From NCBI RefSeq assembly GCF_000026545.1, contig NC_011601.1: a stretch of 64,000 nucleotides of DNA; one strand, written 5' to 3'. A program made the translations under genes and the position numbers. Of this stretch, positions 3,489 to 7,720 are shown in pieces. The notes beneath the pieces were generated by a model. The model made no database searches. It saw only the letters and a list, made by a program, of their open reading frames with translations, and was not told the origin of the DNA. How positions within the stretch are numbered: the first letter of the stretch is position 1; every line of letters starts with the position of its first letter. The stretch comes from Escherichia coli O127:H6 str. E2348/69 (GTDB lineage Bacteria > Pseudomonadota > Gammaproteobacteria > Enterobacterales > Enterobacteriaceae).

Positions 3489-5735
3489 CTATAACCCCCC
3501 GCGAATCAGCCCGCCCATGCCGCGACGCTCCATAAAGGCAGCAACCTGATGGCGAACTTCGGTCGCCAGTTGCGCTTCCAGACTACGCTGCGCAAGATTT
3601 TCTGCTTCAGCAAAATCAATGCGCCGCAGCAGGTATTTTACGCGCGCTACAGAACGTCCGTTCATAGACAGATGGCGATACCCAAGCCCAATGAGGATTG
3701 CCACGCACATGGGATCGCCCGCCATTTCACCGCACAAACGGAGATCGATTCCATGTATTTCCGCTTCCCGGGCGATCATCGCCAGAGCTCGTAACATTGC
3801 AGGATGAAGACTGTCATAAATGTTCGCCACCCGGGTATTGTTGCGATCAACGGCCAGGATGTATTGAGTCAGATCGTTGGTGCCAACAGAGATGAAATCG
3901 ACCCGCTTTGCCAGATGCGGCAGCATAAATACCATTGACGGCACTTCCAGCATGATGCCGATACGTGGTTTGGGAATTTCGTAACCGATCATCTCCTCGA
4001 CTTCACGTCCGGCACGTTCAATCAGGCGGCGTGCTTCGTCAACTTCATCGAGGCTTGTGACCATCGGCAACAGAATATTCAGGTTGCCCGTAGCGGCATT
4101 AGCACGCAGCATCGCCCGCACCTGGATCAAGAAGATCTCCGGCTGATCGAGCGTAATGCGAATCCCACGCCAACCCAGGCATGGATTCTCTTCGCTAATC
4201 GGCATGTAAGGCAGCTGCTTATCTGCTCCGACATCCAGCGTACGCAAGGTGACGGGTTTATCATTAAACATTTGCAGCATCCCCTGATACTGCGCCACCT
4301 GTTCTTCTTCCGACGGAAAACCACTTTGCAGCATGAATGGGATTTCAGTGCGATAAAGTCCTATGCCATCAATACGGCTGCCCAGTTTTTCTTCATGTTC
4401 CGGGCTTAAACCGGCATTGAGCATGACTTTAATGCGCTCGCCGCTTTTTAACTGGGCGGGTAAATTGACGTCATCTTCCGCCAGACGGCTAAGCTCGATC
4501 TCTTCACTAATTAGCCGCTGATATTCTTGCAGCAGTACCGGCTCCGGATCGACCAGCAATTCACCGCGATAACCATCGACGATCAGCGTCCGACGATGCA
4601 GTACCGAAGGCTGAATATCCGCGCCCATCACGGTAGGTATCCCCAGCGCACGTACCATGATCGCAGCATGGGAGTTGGCAGCGCCATCGCGCACGACAAC
4701 ACCGACTAAGCGATCCTGGGGCAGCTCAGCAAGCGTTGTCGCTGACAGTTCATCTGCCACCAGAATGAAACGTTCCGGCCAGGCGTTCGGCCCTTGATTA
4801 GCGTCATCAAGATGAAACAGCAATCGCTGACCCAGCGCACGTAAATCGCCAGCCCGCTCTTTGAGATAGTTATCGCTTAGCGCGGCAAACTGTTCGGCAA
4901 ATTTTTCAATGACCGTTTTTACCGCCCACTCTGCCACCGAGCCTTTATCAACCTCGGCAAACAATTCGCGACGCAGCCGGGTATCCGAAAGCAGGTGTGA
5001 GTAAAGATCGAAAATAGCCGCCGTTTCTTTTTGTGCACCGGCAGCAAAGCGTTTGCTATAGCGGCGAAACTCGTTAGCCGCCTCTTCCAACGCCCCGGTC
5101 AGTCGTTCGCGTTCCAGAGCCGGATCCAGCGTTGATGCCTGATACACCTGTTCCATTAAAGGTAACGTGGCATCCTGCCAGCCTTCGGCAATCGCCACAC
5201 CAGGTGCTGCCGGTAATGCACGGATTCGCGTCTGGCGATATTGCCCAAACAAGGCAGTCAACTGCGACTGAGAAAGAATAGCTGCCATCTGGGTGGCAAG
5301 CGTCACCAGGAAGGATTCTTCACTTTCGTCATACTGGCGCAACTCTCGTTGCTGTACCACCAGTACACCAAGCAACTGGCGACGTTGAATAATTGGTACG
5401 CCTAAAAACGCGCGGAAACGTTCTTCTTTTACGGAGGGGATGTATTTGAAGCTGGGGTGCTTTTGCGCATCTGCAAGGTTTATCGGTTCCGCCAGCCTGC
5501 CAACCAGGCCGACGATCCCTTCATCAAACGCGAGCGTTACAGTGCGACCGCGTGGTTTTTTCAGTCCCCGGGTCGCCATCAGGTAGTAACAACGTCGATC
5601 ATGATCGGCCAGGTAGACCGAACAGACCTCGGTATCCATCGCAAGACAGATGTCGGTAACCAGAATATTTAACGCCTCATTCAGGCGTGGTGCGCTGGCT
5701 ACCTTTTCGACTATTTCGCGCAGGCGAGTGAGCAT
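3489..5735 (-). CDS. ptsP: phosphoenolpyruvate-protein phosphotransferase PtsP (EI-Ntr, GAF domain) (748 aa)
   Basis: Track ORF 748 aa; PEP-utilising enzyme I family sequence. Confidence 0.95.
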   Translation of the reverse strand: MLTRLREIVEKVASAPRLNEALNILVTDICLAMDTEVCSVYLADHDRRCYYLMATRGLKKPRGRTVTLAFDEGIVGLVGRLAEPINLADAQKHPSFKYIPSVKEERFRAFLGVPIIQRRQLLGVLVVQQRELRQYDESEESFLVTLATQMAAILSQSQLTALFGQYRQTRIRALPAAPGVAIAEGWQDATLPLMEQVYQASTLDPALERERLTGALEEAANEFRRYSKRFAAGAQKETAAIFDLYSHLLSDTRLRRELFAEVDKGSVAEWAVKTVIEKFAEQFAALSDNYLKERAGDLRALGQRLLFHLDDANQGPNAWPERFILVADELSATTLAELPQDRLVGVVVRDGAANSHAAIMVRALGIPTVMGADIQPSVLHRRTLIVDGYRGELLVDPEPVLLQEYQRLISEEIELSRLAEDDVNLPAQLKSGERIKVMLNAGLSPEHEEKLGSRIDGIGLYRTEIPFMLQSGFPSEEEQVAQYQGMLQMFNDKPVTLRTLDVGADKQLPYMPISEENPCLGWRGIRITLDQPEIFLIQVRAMLRANAATGNLNILLPMVTSLDEVDEARRLIERAGREVEEMIGYEIPKPRIGIMLEVPSMVFMLPHLAKRVDFISVGTNDLTQYILAVDRNNTRVANIYDSLHPAMLRALAMIAREAEIHGIDLRLCGEMAGDPMCVAILIGLGYRHLSMNGRSVARVKYLLRRIDFAEAENLAQRSLEAQLATEVRHQVAAFMERRGMGGLIRGGL

Positions 5736-5747
5736 AATTGGCGTGAC

Positions 5748-6278
5748 TTAACCTCTTTTACGTCGATAAGCAGATGCGTTTTGTGGTTTTGGCGTATTTT
5801 CCTGCAATGACATCACCACACTCGCGAACTCTTTCATTACCCTACGGTAGACATCACGTTTAAATGACACCACCTGTCTGACTGGATACCAGTAACTTAC
5901 CCATCGCCAGCCGTCAAACTCTGGTGTACTGCTGGTTTGCATATTGATTTCTGCATCGCCGCTCACCAGCTGCAAGAGAAACCATTTTTGTTTTTGGCCG
6001 ATACAAACCGGCTTCGTGTCCCAACGCACCAAACGTTTCGGTAATTTGTAGCGCAACCAGTTACGCGTTGAAGCAAGGATTCGAACGTCTTTGCGGCTTA
6101 ATCCTACTTCTTCAAACAATTCACGGTACATCGCCTGCTCTGCGGATTCTCCGGGGTTGATTCCGCCTTGCGGAAATTGCCAGGAGTGCTGACCAAATCG
6201 CCGGGCCCACATTACCTGCCCCTGGCGATTACAAATCACGATACCTACGTTTGGGCGGTAGCCATCGTCATCAATCAC
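5748..6278 (-). CDS. rppH: RNA pyrophosphohydrolase (Nudix) (176 aa)
   Basis: Track ORF 176 aa with Nudix box [22 protein letters not shown]; upstream of ptsP. Confidence 0.95.
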
Positions 6279-6429
6279 CGGACTACCTCAAAATAAAGCT
6301 TTATATACGAATGATTGTTTCATACTCCAGGAAGACGGTAAACCACTCTCTGCAGGGCATTACACACTAATAACAATTGAATAACTCACAGTTATGTGCA
6401 GAGTTATAAACAGAGGAAGGGGTGGATAG

Positions 6430-6780
6430 CCGTTTTTATTCACCTTTTCTGTGGATAGAGTTGTGAAGAACTACGGAATTACTGCGGGAAAAGCCGGAGC
6501 ATTCTGAATAAGACAGATATAGAGATTTTAAAATATTCATTATCAGTCAATGCATTACATGTGATTTGAGTAATAAAAAAGAGTAATTCGTGACTCAGGT
6601 CACACCTCTCATTTACGTGTTGGCGAAAGATCAACCAATGCCGTATTTATCCACAGAATGTGCCACTAAGTTAAGCACTGAACCACTAAAAACTGGAGTT
6701 TCGTCGCACGTCAAGGCTGTAAATGGAAACAGTAGTGGAGGTTTTTCACAGTTATCCCAGCTTTCTGTGGATAACATGGT
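6430..6780. promoter_or_regulatory. DnaA-box cluster in rppH-mutH spacer, candidate DARS2 (DnaA-reactivating sequence)
   Basis: Perfect TTATCCACA at 6647-6655 and perfect inverted copy TGTGGATAA at 6766-6774 (both confirmed against the frame of track ORF 6590..6784), plus an 8/9 box near 6450; unusually long 684-bp intergenic spacer. Confidence 0.5.
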
Positions 6781-6962
6781 GTAAGATCCTGTTTATTTTC
6801 AGTGACCAGATTTGGAAAACCCGTTGCAGTGTTGCGCAACTCGTTTACCGGCAACCTAAAAAGCAATATAAATCAGAGAATTGAACAACGCATGTGGAAA
6901 AAGTTACACTGCGAATATTCAGCACATAATTGCTGTTTGTTTTTTAACCAAGGTATCATGAC

Positions 6963-7652
6963 ATGTCCCAACCTCGCCCACTGCTCTCTCCTCCCGAAAC
7001 TGAAGAACAATTGTTAGCGCAAGCACAACAACTTTCTGGTTATACATTGGGAGAACTGGCGGCACTTGCCGGGCTGGTTACGCCGGAGAATTTAAAACGC
7101 GATAAGGGCTGGATTGGCGTGTTACTGGAGATCTGGCTAGGTGCCAGCGCAGGGAGTAAACCTGAGCAAGATTTTGCTGCTCTGGGCGTGGAACTTAAAA
7201 CTATCCCTGTGGATAGTCTTGGTCGTCCACTGGAAACAACATTCGTTTGTGTTGCCCCGTTAACGGGCAATAGCGGGGTGACCTGGGAAACCAGCCACGT
7301 GCGCCACAAGCTCAAACGCGTGCTGTGGATACCGGTTGAAGGCGAGCGCAGCATCCCGCTGGCAAAGCGTCGCGTAGGATCACCGTTGCTGTGGAGCCCG
7401 AATGAAGAGGAAGACCAGCAGCTACGCGAAGACTGGGAAGAATTAATGGATATGATTGTTCTCGGTCAGATTGAGCGGATCACCGCTCGTCACGGGGAAT
7501 ATTTACAGATACGACCGAAAGCAGCGAATGCGAAAGCGCTGACCGAAGCTATTGGTGCCCGGGGCGAACGGATTCTGACGCTGCCGCGCGGATTTTATTT
7601 GAAGAAGAATTTCACCAGTGCGCTACTGGCCCGTCATTTTCTGATCCAGTAG
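6963..7652 (+). CDS. mutH: methyl-directed mismatch repair endonuclease MutH (229 aa)
   Basis: Track ORF 229 aa, recognisable MutH sequence. Confidence 0.95.
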
Positions 7653-7720
7653 CCATCGCTTTGACCTGCTGCTTTCCGGGCATATAATTACCGCTTCATT
7701 TTTTTGGCAGGGCTTTTTAG

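What the first reader, a model, noticed from the sequence alone, without database searches (positions are those of the whole stretch)
6430..6780. DnaA-box cluster in the rppH-mutH spacer consistent with DARS2
The 684-bp spacer between divergent rppH and mutH contains a perfect DnaA box TTATCCACA (6647-6655), a perfect inverted copy (6766-6774) and at least one 8/9 match near 6450. A DnaA-reactivating sequence (DARS2) has been described between these genes in E. coli, and the boxes here fit that element. Gene finders tend to place spurious small ORFs (6590..6784, 6802..7017) in this spacer.
Basis: partly seen in the sequence, partly recalled or inferred. Interest (0 to 1): 0.5.

Follow-up and report, generated by a model that had tools for sequence, protein, structure and literature searches.

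The report
DARS2, the known DnaA-reactivating site
The DnaA-box cluster between rppH and mutH is DARS2, a well-studied E. coli DNA element that recharges the replication initiator DnaA with ATP, so the finding is correct but already known.

Summary
Perfect TTATCCACA boxes lie at 6647-6655 (+) and 6766-6774 (-), and an 8/9 box at 6450-6458 (-), in the 684-bp rppH-mutH spacer. No other part of the 64-kb window has this density of DnaA boxes.

The window is E. coli E2348/69. Published primers place the 455-bp DARS2 fragment at 6413-6867. The 8/9 box is core box II. The catalytic core, boxes I-III, is 6436-6470.

The core, IBS1-2, FBS2-3 and boxes IV, V and VI are identical to K-12. All 11 substitutions inside the fragment fall in spacers, apart from one in the non-essential FBS1. 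Novelty: already known.

One by-product may be new. The "dispensable" right half is as conserved as the core across eight genera of Enterobacterales and 112 metagenome sequences. It holds a second head-to-head DnaA-box pair (TTATCCCAG, 5 bp, box VI), usually followed by a third box, in the same geometry as the core. It also holds an unassigned block, GTCAAGGCTGTAAAT..AA.CAG. Both sit at distances from the core that vary by at most 1 bp.

The annotated ygdT ORF inside it looks non-coding.

The parts
6413..6867 (.). Full-length DARS2 fragment (455 bp) as used experimentally
   Evidence: Primers MutH-4 (GAGGAAGGGGTGGATAGCC) and MutH-2 (reverse complement CGGCAACCTAAAAAGCAAT) from Kasho 2014 Table S1 match at 6413 and 6867, giving 455 bp. 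Identity to MG1655 is 444/455.
6413..6645 (.). Minimal DARS2 (the 'deltaRight' construct)
   Evidence: Primer MutH-11 ends at 6645. Kasho 2014 states that deltaRight still causes overinitiation.
6436..6444 (+). Core DnaA box I, TTATTCACC (8/9)
   Evidence: Scan. The deltaCore primers MutH-14 and MutH-15 delete exactly 6436-6470. Same geometry as the DARS1 core. Conserved in 8 genera.
6450..6458 (-). Core DnaA box II, CTATCCACA (8/9), head-to-head with box I across the 5-bp spacer TTTTC.
   Evidence: Quoted as half of a double DnaA box under a DnaA ChIP-seq peak.
6462..6470 (-). Core DnaA box III, TTCTTCACA (8/9), 3 bp from box II and head-to-tail with it
6503..6511 (-). DnaA box IV, TTATTCAGA (8/9), accessory
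   Evidence: Substitution primers Ksh-30 and Ksh-31. Scan. Not conserved outside E. coli.
6529..6557 (.). IHF-binding sites IBS1 (6529-6541, TAAAATATTCATT) and IBS2 (6545-6557, minus strand TAATGCATTGACT), 3 bp apart
   Evidence: Each has one mismatch to TAAnnnnTTGATW. Primers Ksh-16 and Ksh-19. The paper states the two sites are 3 bp apart. Identical to K-12.
6581..6595 (.). Fis site FBS1 (non-essential). The window has T instead of the consensus C at 6595.
   Evidence: Oligos FIS-1U and FISsub-5U. Scan. Substitution seen.
6622..6643 (.). Fis sites FBS2 (6622-6636) and FBS3 (6629-6643). They are essential and overlap the essential 21-mer (6625-6645) and a conserved GATC (6629-6632).
   Evidence: Miyoshi 2021 Suppl. 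Fig. S1 and oligos. Primers MutH-17, MutH-24 and MutH-25. Scans. Identical to K-12.
6647..6655 (+). It nucleates the ATP-DnaA oligomer that displaces Fis.
   Evidence: Primers Ksh-32 and Ksh-33 replace exactly this 9-mer. Function from Miyoshi 2021. Invariant in 8 genera.
6626..6667 (+). Low-affinity DnaA boxes V-c (about 6626-6634), V-b (about 6636-6645) and V-a (about 6659-6667) flanking box V. Registers are approximate.
   Evidence: Positions inferred from the bases changed in the subV-a, subV-b and subV-c oligos of Miyoshi 2021 Table S2. Sequence identical to K-12.
6766..6774 (-).
   Evidence: Primers Ksh-34 and Ksh-35 replace exactly this 9-mer. Dispensable for plasmid-driven overinitiation. 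Quoted as part of a double DnaA box for the strongest of the three DARS2 ChIP-seq peaks.
6824..6838 (.). Fis site FBS6 (GTTGCAGTGTTGCGC), non-essential
   Evidence: Primers Ksh-9/Ksh-10 and MK-46/MK-47, and Suppl. Fig. S1. Not conserved across genera.
6752..6786 (+). Second DARS-core-like triad (my observation): TTATCCCAG (+), 5 bp, box VI (-), 3 bp, GGTGTAAGA (-, reverse complement TCTTACACC, 7/9)
   Evidence: A relaxed triad scan finds only the core and this site in 64 kb, against 0.03 per 64 kb in shuffles. By my own count it is 23/35 identical to the core. It sits 315-316 bp from the core in all 8 genera. The head-to-head pair is present in 111/111 metagenome sequences.
6710..6734 (.). Conserved block of unknown function, GTCAAGGCTGTAAATGGAAACAGTA. 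It contains CTG-N10-CAG.
   Evidence: Near-invariant in 8 genera. Present in 111/111 metagenome sequences, 62-63 bp after box V. Its LexA-like score is no better than chance for 64 kb.
6381..6412 (+). Conserved left block outside the published fragment: TAACTCACA (6382-6390, 7/9) and TTATAAACA (6404-6412, 8/9). It may be the rppH promoter.
   Evidence: Conserved in 8 genera at -54 and -34 from box I. Published strains carry a tet insertion at 6412/6413 and are designated 'DARS2 WT-tet' (primer D2TET-1 and strain table).
6631..6777 (-). Annotated ORF ygdT (48 aa), lying entirely inside the DARS2 right half and probably not coding
   Evidence: RefSeq annotation. The frame is broken or lacks an ATG in 6 of 8 genera, and substitutions show no codon-position bias. 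No gene is called here in Salmonella or Klebsiella. No NCBIfam hit.
5748..6278 (-). rppH (RNA pyrophosphohydrolase), left flanking gene
   Evidence: ORF. MG1655 annotation.
6963..7652 (+). mutH (mismatch-repair endonuclease), right flanking gene
   Evidence: ORF. Annotation. 98% identical to E. coli MutH, PF02976.

Best explanation
The region is DARS2 (DnaA-reactivating sequence 2) of E. coli, here in strain E2348/69. The mechanism below was established in K-12 and is inferred for this strain from sequence identity.

ADP-DnaA binds core boxes I-III (6436-6470). The protomers on the oppositely oriented boxes I and II form a head-to-head AAA+ dimer through Gln208. The protomer on box III stabilises that dimer head-to-tail through Leu290.

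IHF bound at IBS1-2 (6529-6557) bends the negatively supercoiled DNA. This brings Fis, bound at FBS2-3 (6622-6643), to the core complex. ADP is released, apo-DnaA leaves and rebinds ATP, and the ATP-DnaA level rises ahead of initiation at oriC.

When ATP-DnaA is high, it nucleates on the perfect box V (6647-6655) and spreads over the low-affinity boxes V-a, V-b and V-c. This evicts Fis and switches DARS2 off, giving negative feedback.

Boxes IV and VI and sites FBS1 and FBS6 are accessory.
For: - The window spacer is 100% identical to E. coli E2348/69 and is present in 5424 of 5426 complete E. coli genomes.
- Published DARS2 primers map colinearly and give exactly 455 bp at 6413-6867. The deltaCore deletion corresponds to 6436-6470. 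The substitutions for boxes IV, V and VI and for the IBS and FBS sites fall on the matching window sequences.
- The window has 13 substitutions and no indel against MG1655 across the spacer. Eleven lie in the fragment, and none is in the core, IBS1-2, FBS2-3 or boxes IV, V and VI.
- The core has the defining layout of 9+5+9+3+9 bp, the same as the DARS1 core (24/35 identical).
- IBS1 and IBS2 each have one mismatch to the consensus and lie 3 bp apart, as published.
- K-12 DnaA ChIP-seq shows three peaks (78x, 199x, 213x). The double boxes quoted for them are present verbatim in the window.
- The distance from oriC is 0.2055 of the genome, against 0.2061 in MG1655 (my arithmetic). This fits the conserved position reported in PMC4585315.
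- The mechanism is taken from PMC4245941, PMC6868365, PMC8682772 and PMC11724364.
- The core, FBS2-3 and box V are conserved at fixed spacing in 8 genera.
Against: There is no direct experiment on this strain. ADP-release activity, IHF and Fis binding and cell-cycle timing are all inferred from identity with K-12.

Two substitutions lie near functional sites and could modulate activity: 6524, which is 5 bp from IBS1 and inside the roughly 34-bp IHF footprint, and 6595, the last consensus base of FBS1.

The original mapping paper (Fujimitsu 2009) could not be read. The location therefore rests on later papers and their primer tables.
Confidence: 0.97

Rival explanations
1. The boxes are mainly a transcriptional operator. 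DnaA bound at box VI and its neighbours, and possibly at the left block, would regulate the divergent mutH and rppH promoters. Any DnaA reactivation would be secondary or absent.
For: The literature calls the locus 'the mutH promoter', first isolated as a high-affinity DnaA-binding fragment. DARS1 likewise sits in the uvrB promoter region. The conserved TAAGAT at 6782-6787, next to box VI, could serve as a -10 element, and TATAAC on the minus strand at 6403-6408 could be an rppH -10 (my reading). Spacing is conserved right up to the T-run just before the mutH start codon.
Against: DARS activity of this exact sequence has been reconstituted in vitro and shown in vivo in K-12. The consensus promoter scan finds only one site, at 6903-6930, away from the boxes. 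No conserved -35 partner accompanies either putative -10. The two roles are not mutually exclusive.
Confidence: 0.12
2. It is a datA-like element: a DnaA-box cluster with an IHF site that titrates DnaA or promotes DnaA-ATP hydrolysis, so it would inhibit initiation, not stimulate it.
For: It has a cluster of DnaA boxes plus an IHF site, as datA does. ChIP-seq coverage (213x) equals that of datA. Box V does have a repressive role.
Against: The defining head-to-head I-II pair with a 5-bp gap is the DARS layout. Deletion of this locus in K-12 raises initiation mass, and extra copies cause overinitiation, which is the opposite of datA. datA is a different locus: the ChIP-seq table lists it at about 4.39 Mb.
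Confidence: 0.01
3. The conservation reflects a small protein gene (ygdT, or one of the reader's ORFs), and the DnaA boxes are incidental.
For: RefSeq annotates ygdT (48 aa) here in the E. coli records listed. The frame is also open in Salmonella.
Against: The ygdT frame has stops or lacks an ATG in Klebsiella, Enterobacter, Serratia, Yersinia, Photorhabdus and Pantoea. Substitutions are spread evenly over codon positions (for example 6:10:8). The conserved 'peptide' stretches coincide with box V, the unassigned block and box VI. No gene is called here in Salmonella or Klebsiella. No NCBIfam family matches any of the three ORFs.
Confidence: 0.03
4. It is a chance cluster of DnaA-box-like 9-mers in an AT-rich spacer.
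For: Imperfect matches to a 9-mer are common: there are 111 one-mismatch-or-better matches in the 64 kb.
Against: Three exact TTATCCACA copies occur against 0.53 expected. The box density is unique in the window. Boxes and spacing are conserved in 8 genera. The sequences are bound by DnaA in vivo in K-12.
Confidence: 0.005

Closest known systems
DARS2 of E. coli K-12 (Fujimitsu 2009; Kasho 2014, PMC4245941; Miyoshi 2021, PMC8682772; Kasho 2025, PMC11724364)
   Same: It is the same locus, between rppH and mutH. It has the same 455-bp extent and identical core boxes I-III, box IV, IBS1-2, FBS2-3, box V with V-a, V-b and V-c, box VI and FBS6. It lies at the same relative distance from oriC (0.2055 against 0.2061).
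   Different: There are 11 substitutions in the 455 bp. Ten are in spacers and one is in the last consensus base of the non-essential FBS1 (6595). No function has been measured in this strain.
DARS1 (bioD-uvrB spacer)
   Same: It has the same core architecture: box I (+), 5 bp, box II (-), 3 bp, box III (-). It is 24/35 identical to the DARS2 core. It uses the same head-to-head ADP-release chemistry.
   Different: DARS1 needs no IHF or Fis, has higher-affinity boxes I and II, is insensitive to supercoiling, and lies elsewhere on the chromosome.
datA (DnaA-ATP hydrolysis locus)
   Same: It is a non-coding DnaA-box cluster whose activity depends on timed IHF binding and supercoiling.
   Different: It has the opposite output (ATP hydrolysis), a different box arrangement, no Fis requirement and a different locus.
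oriC DnaA-oligomerisation region
   Same: It combines high- and low-affinity DnaA boxes with IHF and Fis sites, and ATP-DnaA spreads cooperatively from a strong box. This resembles box V with V-a, V-b and V-c.
   Different: It is not the origin: oriC lies about 1.02 Mb away in this strain, in the mioC-mnmG gap. The core pair here is head-to-head, unlike the head-to-tail arrays of oriC. I did not scan the spacer for a duplex-unwinding element.
ColE1-type plasmid DARS (Fujimitsu and Katayama 2004, as summarised in PMC5835720)
   Same: [quoted passage not shown]
   Different: It is plasmid-borne. The summary read here describes no IHF/Fis regulatory region for it.

Membership tests
DARS2 (E. coli DnaA-reactivating sequence 2) | Lies in the spacer upstream of mutH, between rppH and mutH | tested here: met
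   Flanking genes identified. The literature places DARS2 upstream of mutH.
DARS2 (E. coli DnaA-reactivating sequence 2) | Matches the experimentally defined 455-bp fragment and its deletion and substitution constructs | tested here: met
   All primers map colinearly. The fragment is 6413-6867 and 444/455 identical to MG1655.
DARS family (DARS1, DARS2) | Core of three DnaA boxes: I and II head-to-head with a 5-bp gap, and III 3 bp from II in the same orientation as II | tested here: met
   6436-6470, TTATTCACC ttttc TGTGGATAG agt TGTGAAGAA. Same geometry as the DARS1 core. The 5-bp gap is stated in PMC6868365.
DARS2 (E. coli DnaA-reactivating sequence 2) | IBS1-2: two 13-mer IHF consensus sites 3 bp apart, downstream of the core | tested here: met
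   6529-6541 and 6545-6557, one mismatch each, identical to K-12.
DARS2 (E. coli DnaA-reactivating sequence 2) | FBS2-3 within the essential 21-mer immediately before box V | tested here: met
   6622-6643, with the 21-mer at 6625-6645. Identical to K-12.
DARS2 (E. coli DnaA-reactivating sequence 2) | Perfect box V flanked by low-affinity boxes (the negative-feedback module) | tested here: met
   6647-6655, with flanks identical to the FBS2-5 oligo from its fourth base onward.
DARS2 (E. coli DnaA-reactivating sequence 2) | Conserved relative chromosomal position, about 0.2 genome lengths from oriC | tested here: met
   1,015,991 bp of 4,944,462 is 0.2055, against 0.2061 in MG1655.
DARS2 (E. coli DnaA-reactivating sequence 2) | Bound by DnaA, IHF and Fis | not testable with these tools
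   Only K-12 data are available: ChIP-seq peaks on sequences identical in the window, and footprints.
DARS2 (E. coli DnaA-reactivating sequence 2) | Promotes ADP release from DnaA and advances initiation | not testable with these tools
   Shown for K-12 DARS2. Inferred here.
datA-type DnaA-inactivating locus | datA box arrangement at the datA locus, promoting DnaA-ATP hydrolysis | tested here: not met
   The locus and the box layout both differ (head-to-head core). The K-12 phenotype is the opposite.
Protein-coding gene ygdT | Open frame and coding-type substitution pattern conserved in relatives | tested here: not met
   The frame is broken or lacks an ATG in 6 of 8 genera. There is no third-position bias and no family hit.
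LexA (SOS) box, for the block at 6715-6734 | CTGT-N8-ACAG palindrome scoring clearly better than chance | tested here: inconclusive
   The heterology index is about 10.9. That is the best in the window but equal to the mean best score in 64-kb shuffles. The matrix was built from boxes recalled from memory. CTG-N10-CAG is conserved in 8 genera.
Known RNA family in the spacer | Match to an Rfam model, or a conserved secondary structure | tested here: not met
   No Rfam match at E<=1. RNAalifold predicts no pairs in the mutH leader.

The most novel reading that the evidence does not exclude
Functional DARS2 may be larger than the 233-256-bp 'minimal' element. The right half, treated as dispensable in plasmid assays, would then be a conserved module.

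That module has two parts. One is a second head-to-head DnaA-box pair (TTATCCCAG, 5 bp, perfect box VI), usually followed by a third box 3 bp on. This copies the geometry of the catalytic core. The other is an unassigned 25-bp block (6710-6734).

Both are held at distances from the core and from box V that vary by at most 1 bp: +316 and +105 bp for the pair, about 30 and 10 helical turns. This holds in eight genera of Enterobacterales and in 111 of 111 metagenome sequences.

The module could be a second DnaA assembly site. It might communicate with the core through the IHF/Fis-bent DNA to set timing, act as a loading reservoir or give extra negative control. It might also couple DARS2 to mutH transcription.
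Probability: 0.35. Interest if true: 0.5.

Novelty: already known. Interest (0 to 1): 0.12.

Why it matters
DARS2 is the main site that regenerates ATP-DnaA, so it helps time chromosome replication in E. coli and its relatives. Recognising it here only confirms that the first-stage reader can rediscover a known non-coding control element from raw sequence. It also shows that the element is intact in the pathogenic strain E2348/69.

Two practical points follow. First, the annotated ygdT ORF and the two mechanical ORFs lie on top of protein-binding DNA and should not be read as genes.

Second, the cross-genus comparison shows that the right half of DARS2 is under constraint as strong as the catalytic core, in both sequence and length. 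I found no description of this in the papers I could read. If it is real, the function of chromosomal DARS2 cannot be fully captured by the minimal fragment used in most assays.

Tried and rejected
- **Rfam.** A scan of 5700-7700 at E<=1 found nothing.
- **Conserved RNA structure.** RNAalifold on the mutH leader from 7 genera predicted no pairs.
- **Promoter and terminator scan.** There was one promoter-like site, at 6903-6930, fewer than in shuffles (mean 2.0). The two terminator-like hairpins were not pursued.
- **LexA box at 6715-6734.** The first script timed out. The second gave a heterology index of about 10.9, the best in the window but equal to what shuffles give, so this stays a weak lead only.
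- **IHF, Fis and sigma-70 readings of the 6710-6734 block.** I checked these by eye and none fits well.
- **Literature on ygdT.** Uninformative; most hits were an unrelated polymerase motif.
- **Fujimitsu 2009.** Not held in the library.
- **Search for 'DnaA box VI' with DARS2.** No paper found. 'mutH promoter' occurs in only one review.
- **MutH homologue search.** It returned only Enterobacteriaceae at 83-98% identity, so it could not extend sampling to Vibrio, Shewanella or Aeromonas. I used it only to fetch Salmonella and Klebsiella.
- **Right triad as an autonomous DARS.** Considered and rejected, because the published full-length deltaCore plasmid is inactive.
Full report
**What is in the sequence**

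The window carries ptsP (3489-5735, -), rppH (5748-6278, -), a 684-bp spacer (6279-6962), mutH (6963-7652, +) and ygdQ. This is the same order as in E. coli K-12 MG1655. The spacer is 100% identical to E. coli E2348/69. It is found at 95% identity or better in 5424 of 5426 complete E. coli genomes.

- Exact TTATCCACA at 6647-6655 (+) and 6766-6774 (-). The only other copy in the 64 kb is at 42455-42463. That is 3 found against 0.53 expected, and no shuffle reaches 3.
- An 8/9 box, CTATCCACA, at 6450-6458 (-).

Box density is unique. The interval 6413-6867 has 3 exact and 8 one-mismatch-or-better matches to TTWTNCACA, against window means of 0.07 and 0.78. Only 455-bp windows that overlap the spacer reach those numbers.

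**Identification**

Reviews and a ChIP-seq paper place DARS2 upstream of mutH, in the mutH promoter region. I mapped the primer tables of Kasho et al. 2014 (PMC4245941) and Miyoshi et al. 2021 (PMC8682772) onto the window.

| Construct or site | Primers or source | Window coordinates |
|---|---|---|
| Full-length DARS2 (455 bp) | MutH-4 / MutH-2 | 6413-6867 |
| Minimal DARS2 (deltaRight) | MutH-4 / MutH-11 | 6413-6645 |
| deltaCore deletion | MutH-14 / MutH-15 | 6436-6470 |
| Essential 21-mer | MutH-17, MutH-24, MutH-25 | 6625-6645 |
| Box IV | Ksh-30 / Ksh-31 | 6503-6511 |
| Box V | Ksh-32 / Ksh-33 | 6647-6655 |
| Box VI | Ksh-34 / Ksh-35 | 6766-6774 |
| IBS1-2 | Ksh-16 / Ksh-19 | 6529-6557 |
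| FBS1 | FIS-1U / FISsub-5U | 6581-6595 |
| FBS2-3 | Miyoshi Suppl. Fig. S1 | 6622-6643 |
| FBS6 | Ksh-9 / Ksh-10, MK-46 / MK-47 | 6824-6838 |

The deltaCore deletion is exactly boxes I (TTATTCACC, +), II (CTATCCACA, -) and III (TTCTTCACA, -), with 5-bp and 3-bp gaps.

Its 8/9 box is core box II.

**Integrity of the element**

Against MG1655 the spacer has 13 substitutions and no indel. Eleven are inside the 455-bp fragment: 6484, 6493, 6513, 6515, 6524, 6563, 6568, 6575, 6595, 6618 and 6844. None falls in the core, box IV, IBS1-2, FBS2-3, box V with its low-affinity neighbours, box VI or FBS6.

Position 6595 changes the last consensus base of the non-essential FBS1. Position 6524 lies 5 bp outside IBS1.

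IBS1 and IBS2 each have one mismatch to TAAnnnnTTGATW and are 3 bp apart, as published.

The core has the same 9+5+9+3+9 layout as the DARS1 core fetched from MG1655, and is 24/35 identical to it.

In E2348/69, oriC lies in the mioC-mnmG gap at about 4,903,075. The DARS2 core is at about 974,604. They are 1,015,991 bp apart, or 0.2055 of the chromosome, against 0.2061 in MG1655. This matches the conserved relative position reported by Frimodt-Moller et al. 2015, who also found all six DARS2 DnaA boxes invariant in 59 E. coli genomes.

**DnaA binding**

K-12 DnaA ChIP-seq (PMC11317965) lists three DARS2 peaks:

| MG1655 coordinate | Coverage against control | Window position |
|---|---|---|
| 2,969,124 | 78x | about 6425 |
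| 2,969,306 | 199x | about 6607 |
| 2,969,501 | 213x | about 6802 |

The window positions assume NC_000913.3 numbering, in which the spacer is 2,968,978-2,969,661. The paper's footnote says NC_000913.2, but only the .3 numbering places these peaks in the spacer.

The quoted double boxes occur verbatim in the window. gTTCTTCACAactCTATCCACAg is boxes III and II. tCTTACACCAtgTTATCCACAg is box VI and its neighbour.

**Mechanism**

This is established for K-12 and inferred here.
1. ADP-DnaA assembles on boxes I-III.
2. The I-II protomers interact head-to-head through Gln208, and box III stabilises them through Leu290.
3. IHF at IBS1-2, favoured by negative supercoiling, loops the DNA so that Fis at FBS2-3 contacts the core complex.
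4. ADP is released and apo-DnaA rebinds ATP.
5. ATP-DnaA nucleated on box V spreads over V-a, V-b and V-c, evicts Fis and shuts the element off.

**Rivals**

- A purely transcriptional operator is not excluded as an additional role, but it cannot replace the demonstrated DARS activity.
- A datA-like role is contradicted by the layout and by K-12 phenotypes.
- A coding explanation fails. The ygdT frame (6631-6777, -) is open only in E. coli and Salmonella, and substitutions are evenly spread over codon positions. Its conserved 'peptide' stretches coincide with box V, an unassigned DNA block and box VI. Gene callers skip it in Salmonella and Klebsiella.
- No Rfam family and no conserved RNA structure is present.

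**Beyond the finding**

Five loci had the rppH/mutH context: Pantoea, Enterobacter, Serratia, Yersinia and Photorhabdus. Twelve had the uvrB/bioD context of DARS1. The other 103 had neither. This fits the published remark that DARS-like sequences are widespread in proteobacteria.

I added Salmonella and Klebsiella to make an eight-genus alignment. It shows conserved blocks that the literature I could read does not discuss.

*Left block.* TAACTCACA and AGTTATAAACA (6382-6412) lie just outside the published fragment.

*Unassigned block.* GTCAAGGCTGTAAAT..AA.CAG (6710-6734).

*Second triad.* TTATCCCAG (6752-6760, +), 5 bp, box VI (-), 3 bp, GGTGTAAGA (6778-6786, -), then TCCTGTTTATT.
- This repeats the geometry of the core. 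By my own count it is 23/35 identical to it.
- A relaxed triad scan finds only the core and this site in the 64 kb, against 0.03 per 64 kb in shuffles.
- In this block the boxes are conserved and the gaps between them are not.

*Fixed distances.* Every landmark sits at a fixed distance from box I in all eight genera, apart from 1-bp shifts in Yersinia and Photorhabdus.

| Landmark | Distance from box I start (bp) |
|---|---|
| TAACTCACA | -54 |
| AGTTATAAACA | -34 |
| FBS (AAAGATC) | +190 |
| Box V | +211 |
| Unassigned block | +274 |
| Second triad (I') | +316 |
| GATCCTGTT | +348 |
| T-run before mutH | +504 |

*Independent sample.* I chose 112 distinct metagenome sequences by the FBS2-box V motif only.
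- The core is present in 102 of 103, at -211 from box V in 99.
- The unassigned block is present in 111 of 111, at +63 in 104 and +62 in 7.
- The I'-5 bp-VI pair is present in 111 of 111, at +105 in 102 and +104 in 9.
- III' has two or fewer mismatches in 90 of 111.

*Caveats.*
- These sequences are related and are not independent events.
- I' is only 6/9 to the consensus.
- The published full-length deltaCore plasmid is inactive, and boxes IV-VI are dispensable on plasmids. The right half is therefore not an autonomous DARS.
- The 6715-6734 palindrome resembles a LexA box but scores no better than chance.

I rate the chance that the right half is a functional, so far undescribed part of DARS2 regulation at about one in three.

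**Verdict**

Observation confirmed, interpretation supported. The element is the well-characterised DARS2, which is already known. Interest is low for the finding as given. The right-half architecture is a modest lead worth testing on the chromosome.

Noticed in passing
window 6752-6786: A second DnaA-box triad with the same geometry as the DARS core: TTATCCCAG (+), 5 bp, perfect box VI (-), 3 bp, GGTGTAAGA (-). By my own count it is 23/35 identical to the core. It is the only other relaxed triad in the 64 kb. It is conserved in 8 genera, and the head-to-head pair is present in 111/111 metagenome sequences. I found no description of it in the papers I could read.
   Followed up: yes
window 6382-6950: All conserved landmarks of the spacer keep distances from core box I that vary by at most 1 bp in eight genera: -54, -34, +190, +211, +274, +316, +348 and +504. 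The sequence between them has diverged. Yersinia has a 1-bp loss that is later compensated. The same-orientation boxes are spaced 22, 32, 211 and 105 bp apart, close to whole helical turns. That last point is post hoc.
   Followed up: partly
window 6710-6734: A near-invariant block, GTCAAGGCTGTAAATGGAAACAGTA, with no assigned function. It contains CTG-N10-CAG and looks like a LexA box, but its score equals what chance gives in 64 kb.
   Followed up: partly
window 6381-6412: A conserved block just left of the published DARS2 boundary: TAACTCACA (7/9 DnaA box) and TTATAAACA (8/9). On the minus strand it reads TATAAC and could be the rppH -10 element. Published strains with tet inserted at 6412/6413 are designated 'DARS2 WT-tet'.
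   Followed up: partly
window 6631-6777 (-): The RefSeq-annotated ygdT ORF lies wholly inside the DARS2 right half and looks non-coding. The frame is broken or lacks an ATG in 6 of 8 genera, there is no codon-position bias, and its conserved 'residues' coincide with DNA-binding motifs.
   Followed up: yes
window 6595 and 6524: Two strain-specific substitutions against K-12 lie next to functional sites. C to T removes the last consensus base of the non-essential FBS1. C to G lies 5 bp outside IBS1, within the expected IHF footprint.
   Followed up: no
window 6629-6632 and 6785-6788: The only two GATC sites in the spacer are both conserved across genera. One is inside FBS2-3 and the other overlaps the third box of the second triad. 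A role for Dam or SeqA was not examined.
   Followed up: no
L126 (E. coli isolate AF23, NZ_OZ547209.1), equivalent to window 6378-6386: A natural IS1 insertion with a 9-bp target duplication (TGAATAACT) splits the conserved left block. It separates rppH from an otherwise intact DARS2.
   Followed up: yes
window 42455-42463: The third perfect TTATCCACA in the window is an isolated box in the mocA/yqeC region, with no cluster around it.
   Followed up: partly
L003-L122 (genome-contig hits): The DARS core pattern (box, 5 bp, inverted box, 3 bp, TGTG) occurs in at least 120 loci across Gamma- and Betaproteobacteria. Of these, 103 are next to neither uvrB/bioD nor rppH/mutH. About 18 Pseudomonas loci share TTATCCACA...TGTGGATAAcctTGTGAACAG (11 of them with the spacer caaat). 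In L024 this lies at 6309-6343, next to an FKBP-type PPIase gene.
   Followed up: partly
L055-L061 (Legionella nagasakiensis): One genome carries 8 copies of the triad, and 5 of them have near-identical flanks (atcatcgctcatttt... / ...accattaaaaacc). This suggests a repeated element that carries a DARS-like DnaA-box triad.
   Followed up: no
window 6742-6750 and 6893-6901: Two further exact matches to the relaxed consensus TTWTNCACA: TTTTTCACA (+), which abuts I', and TTTTCCACA (-), nearer mutH. Neither has a number in the papers read. TTTTTCACA keeps a consensus match only in E. coli and Salmonella.
   Followed up: no
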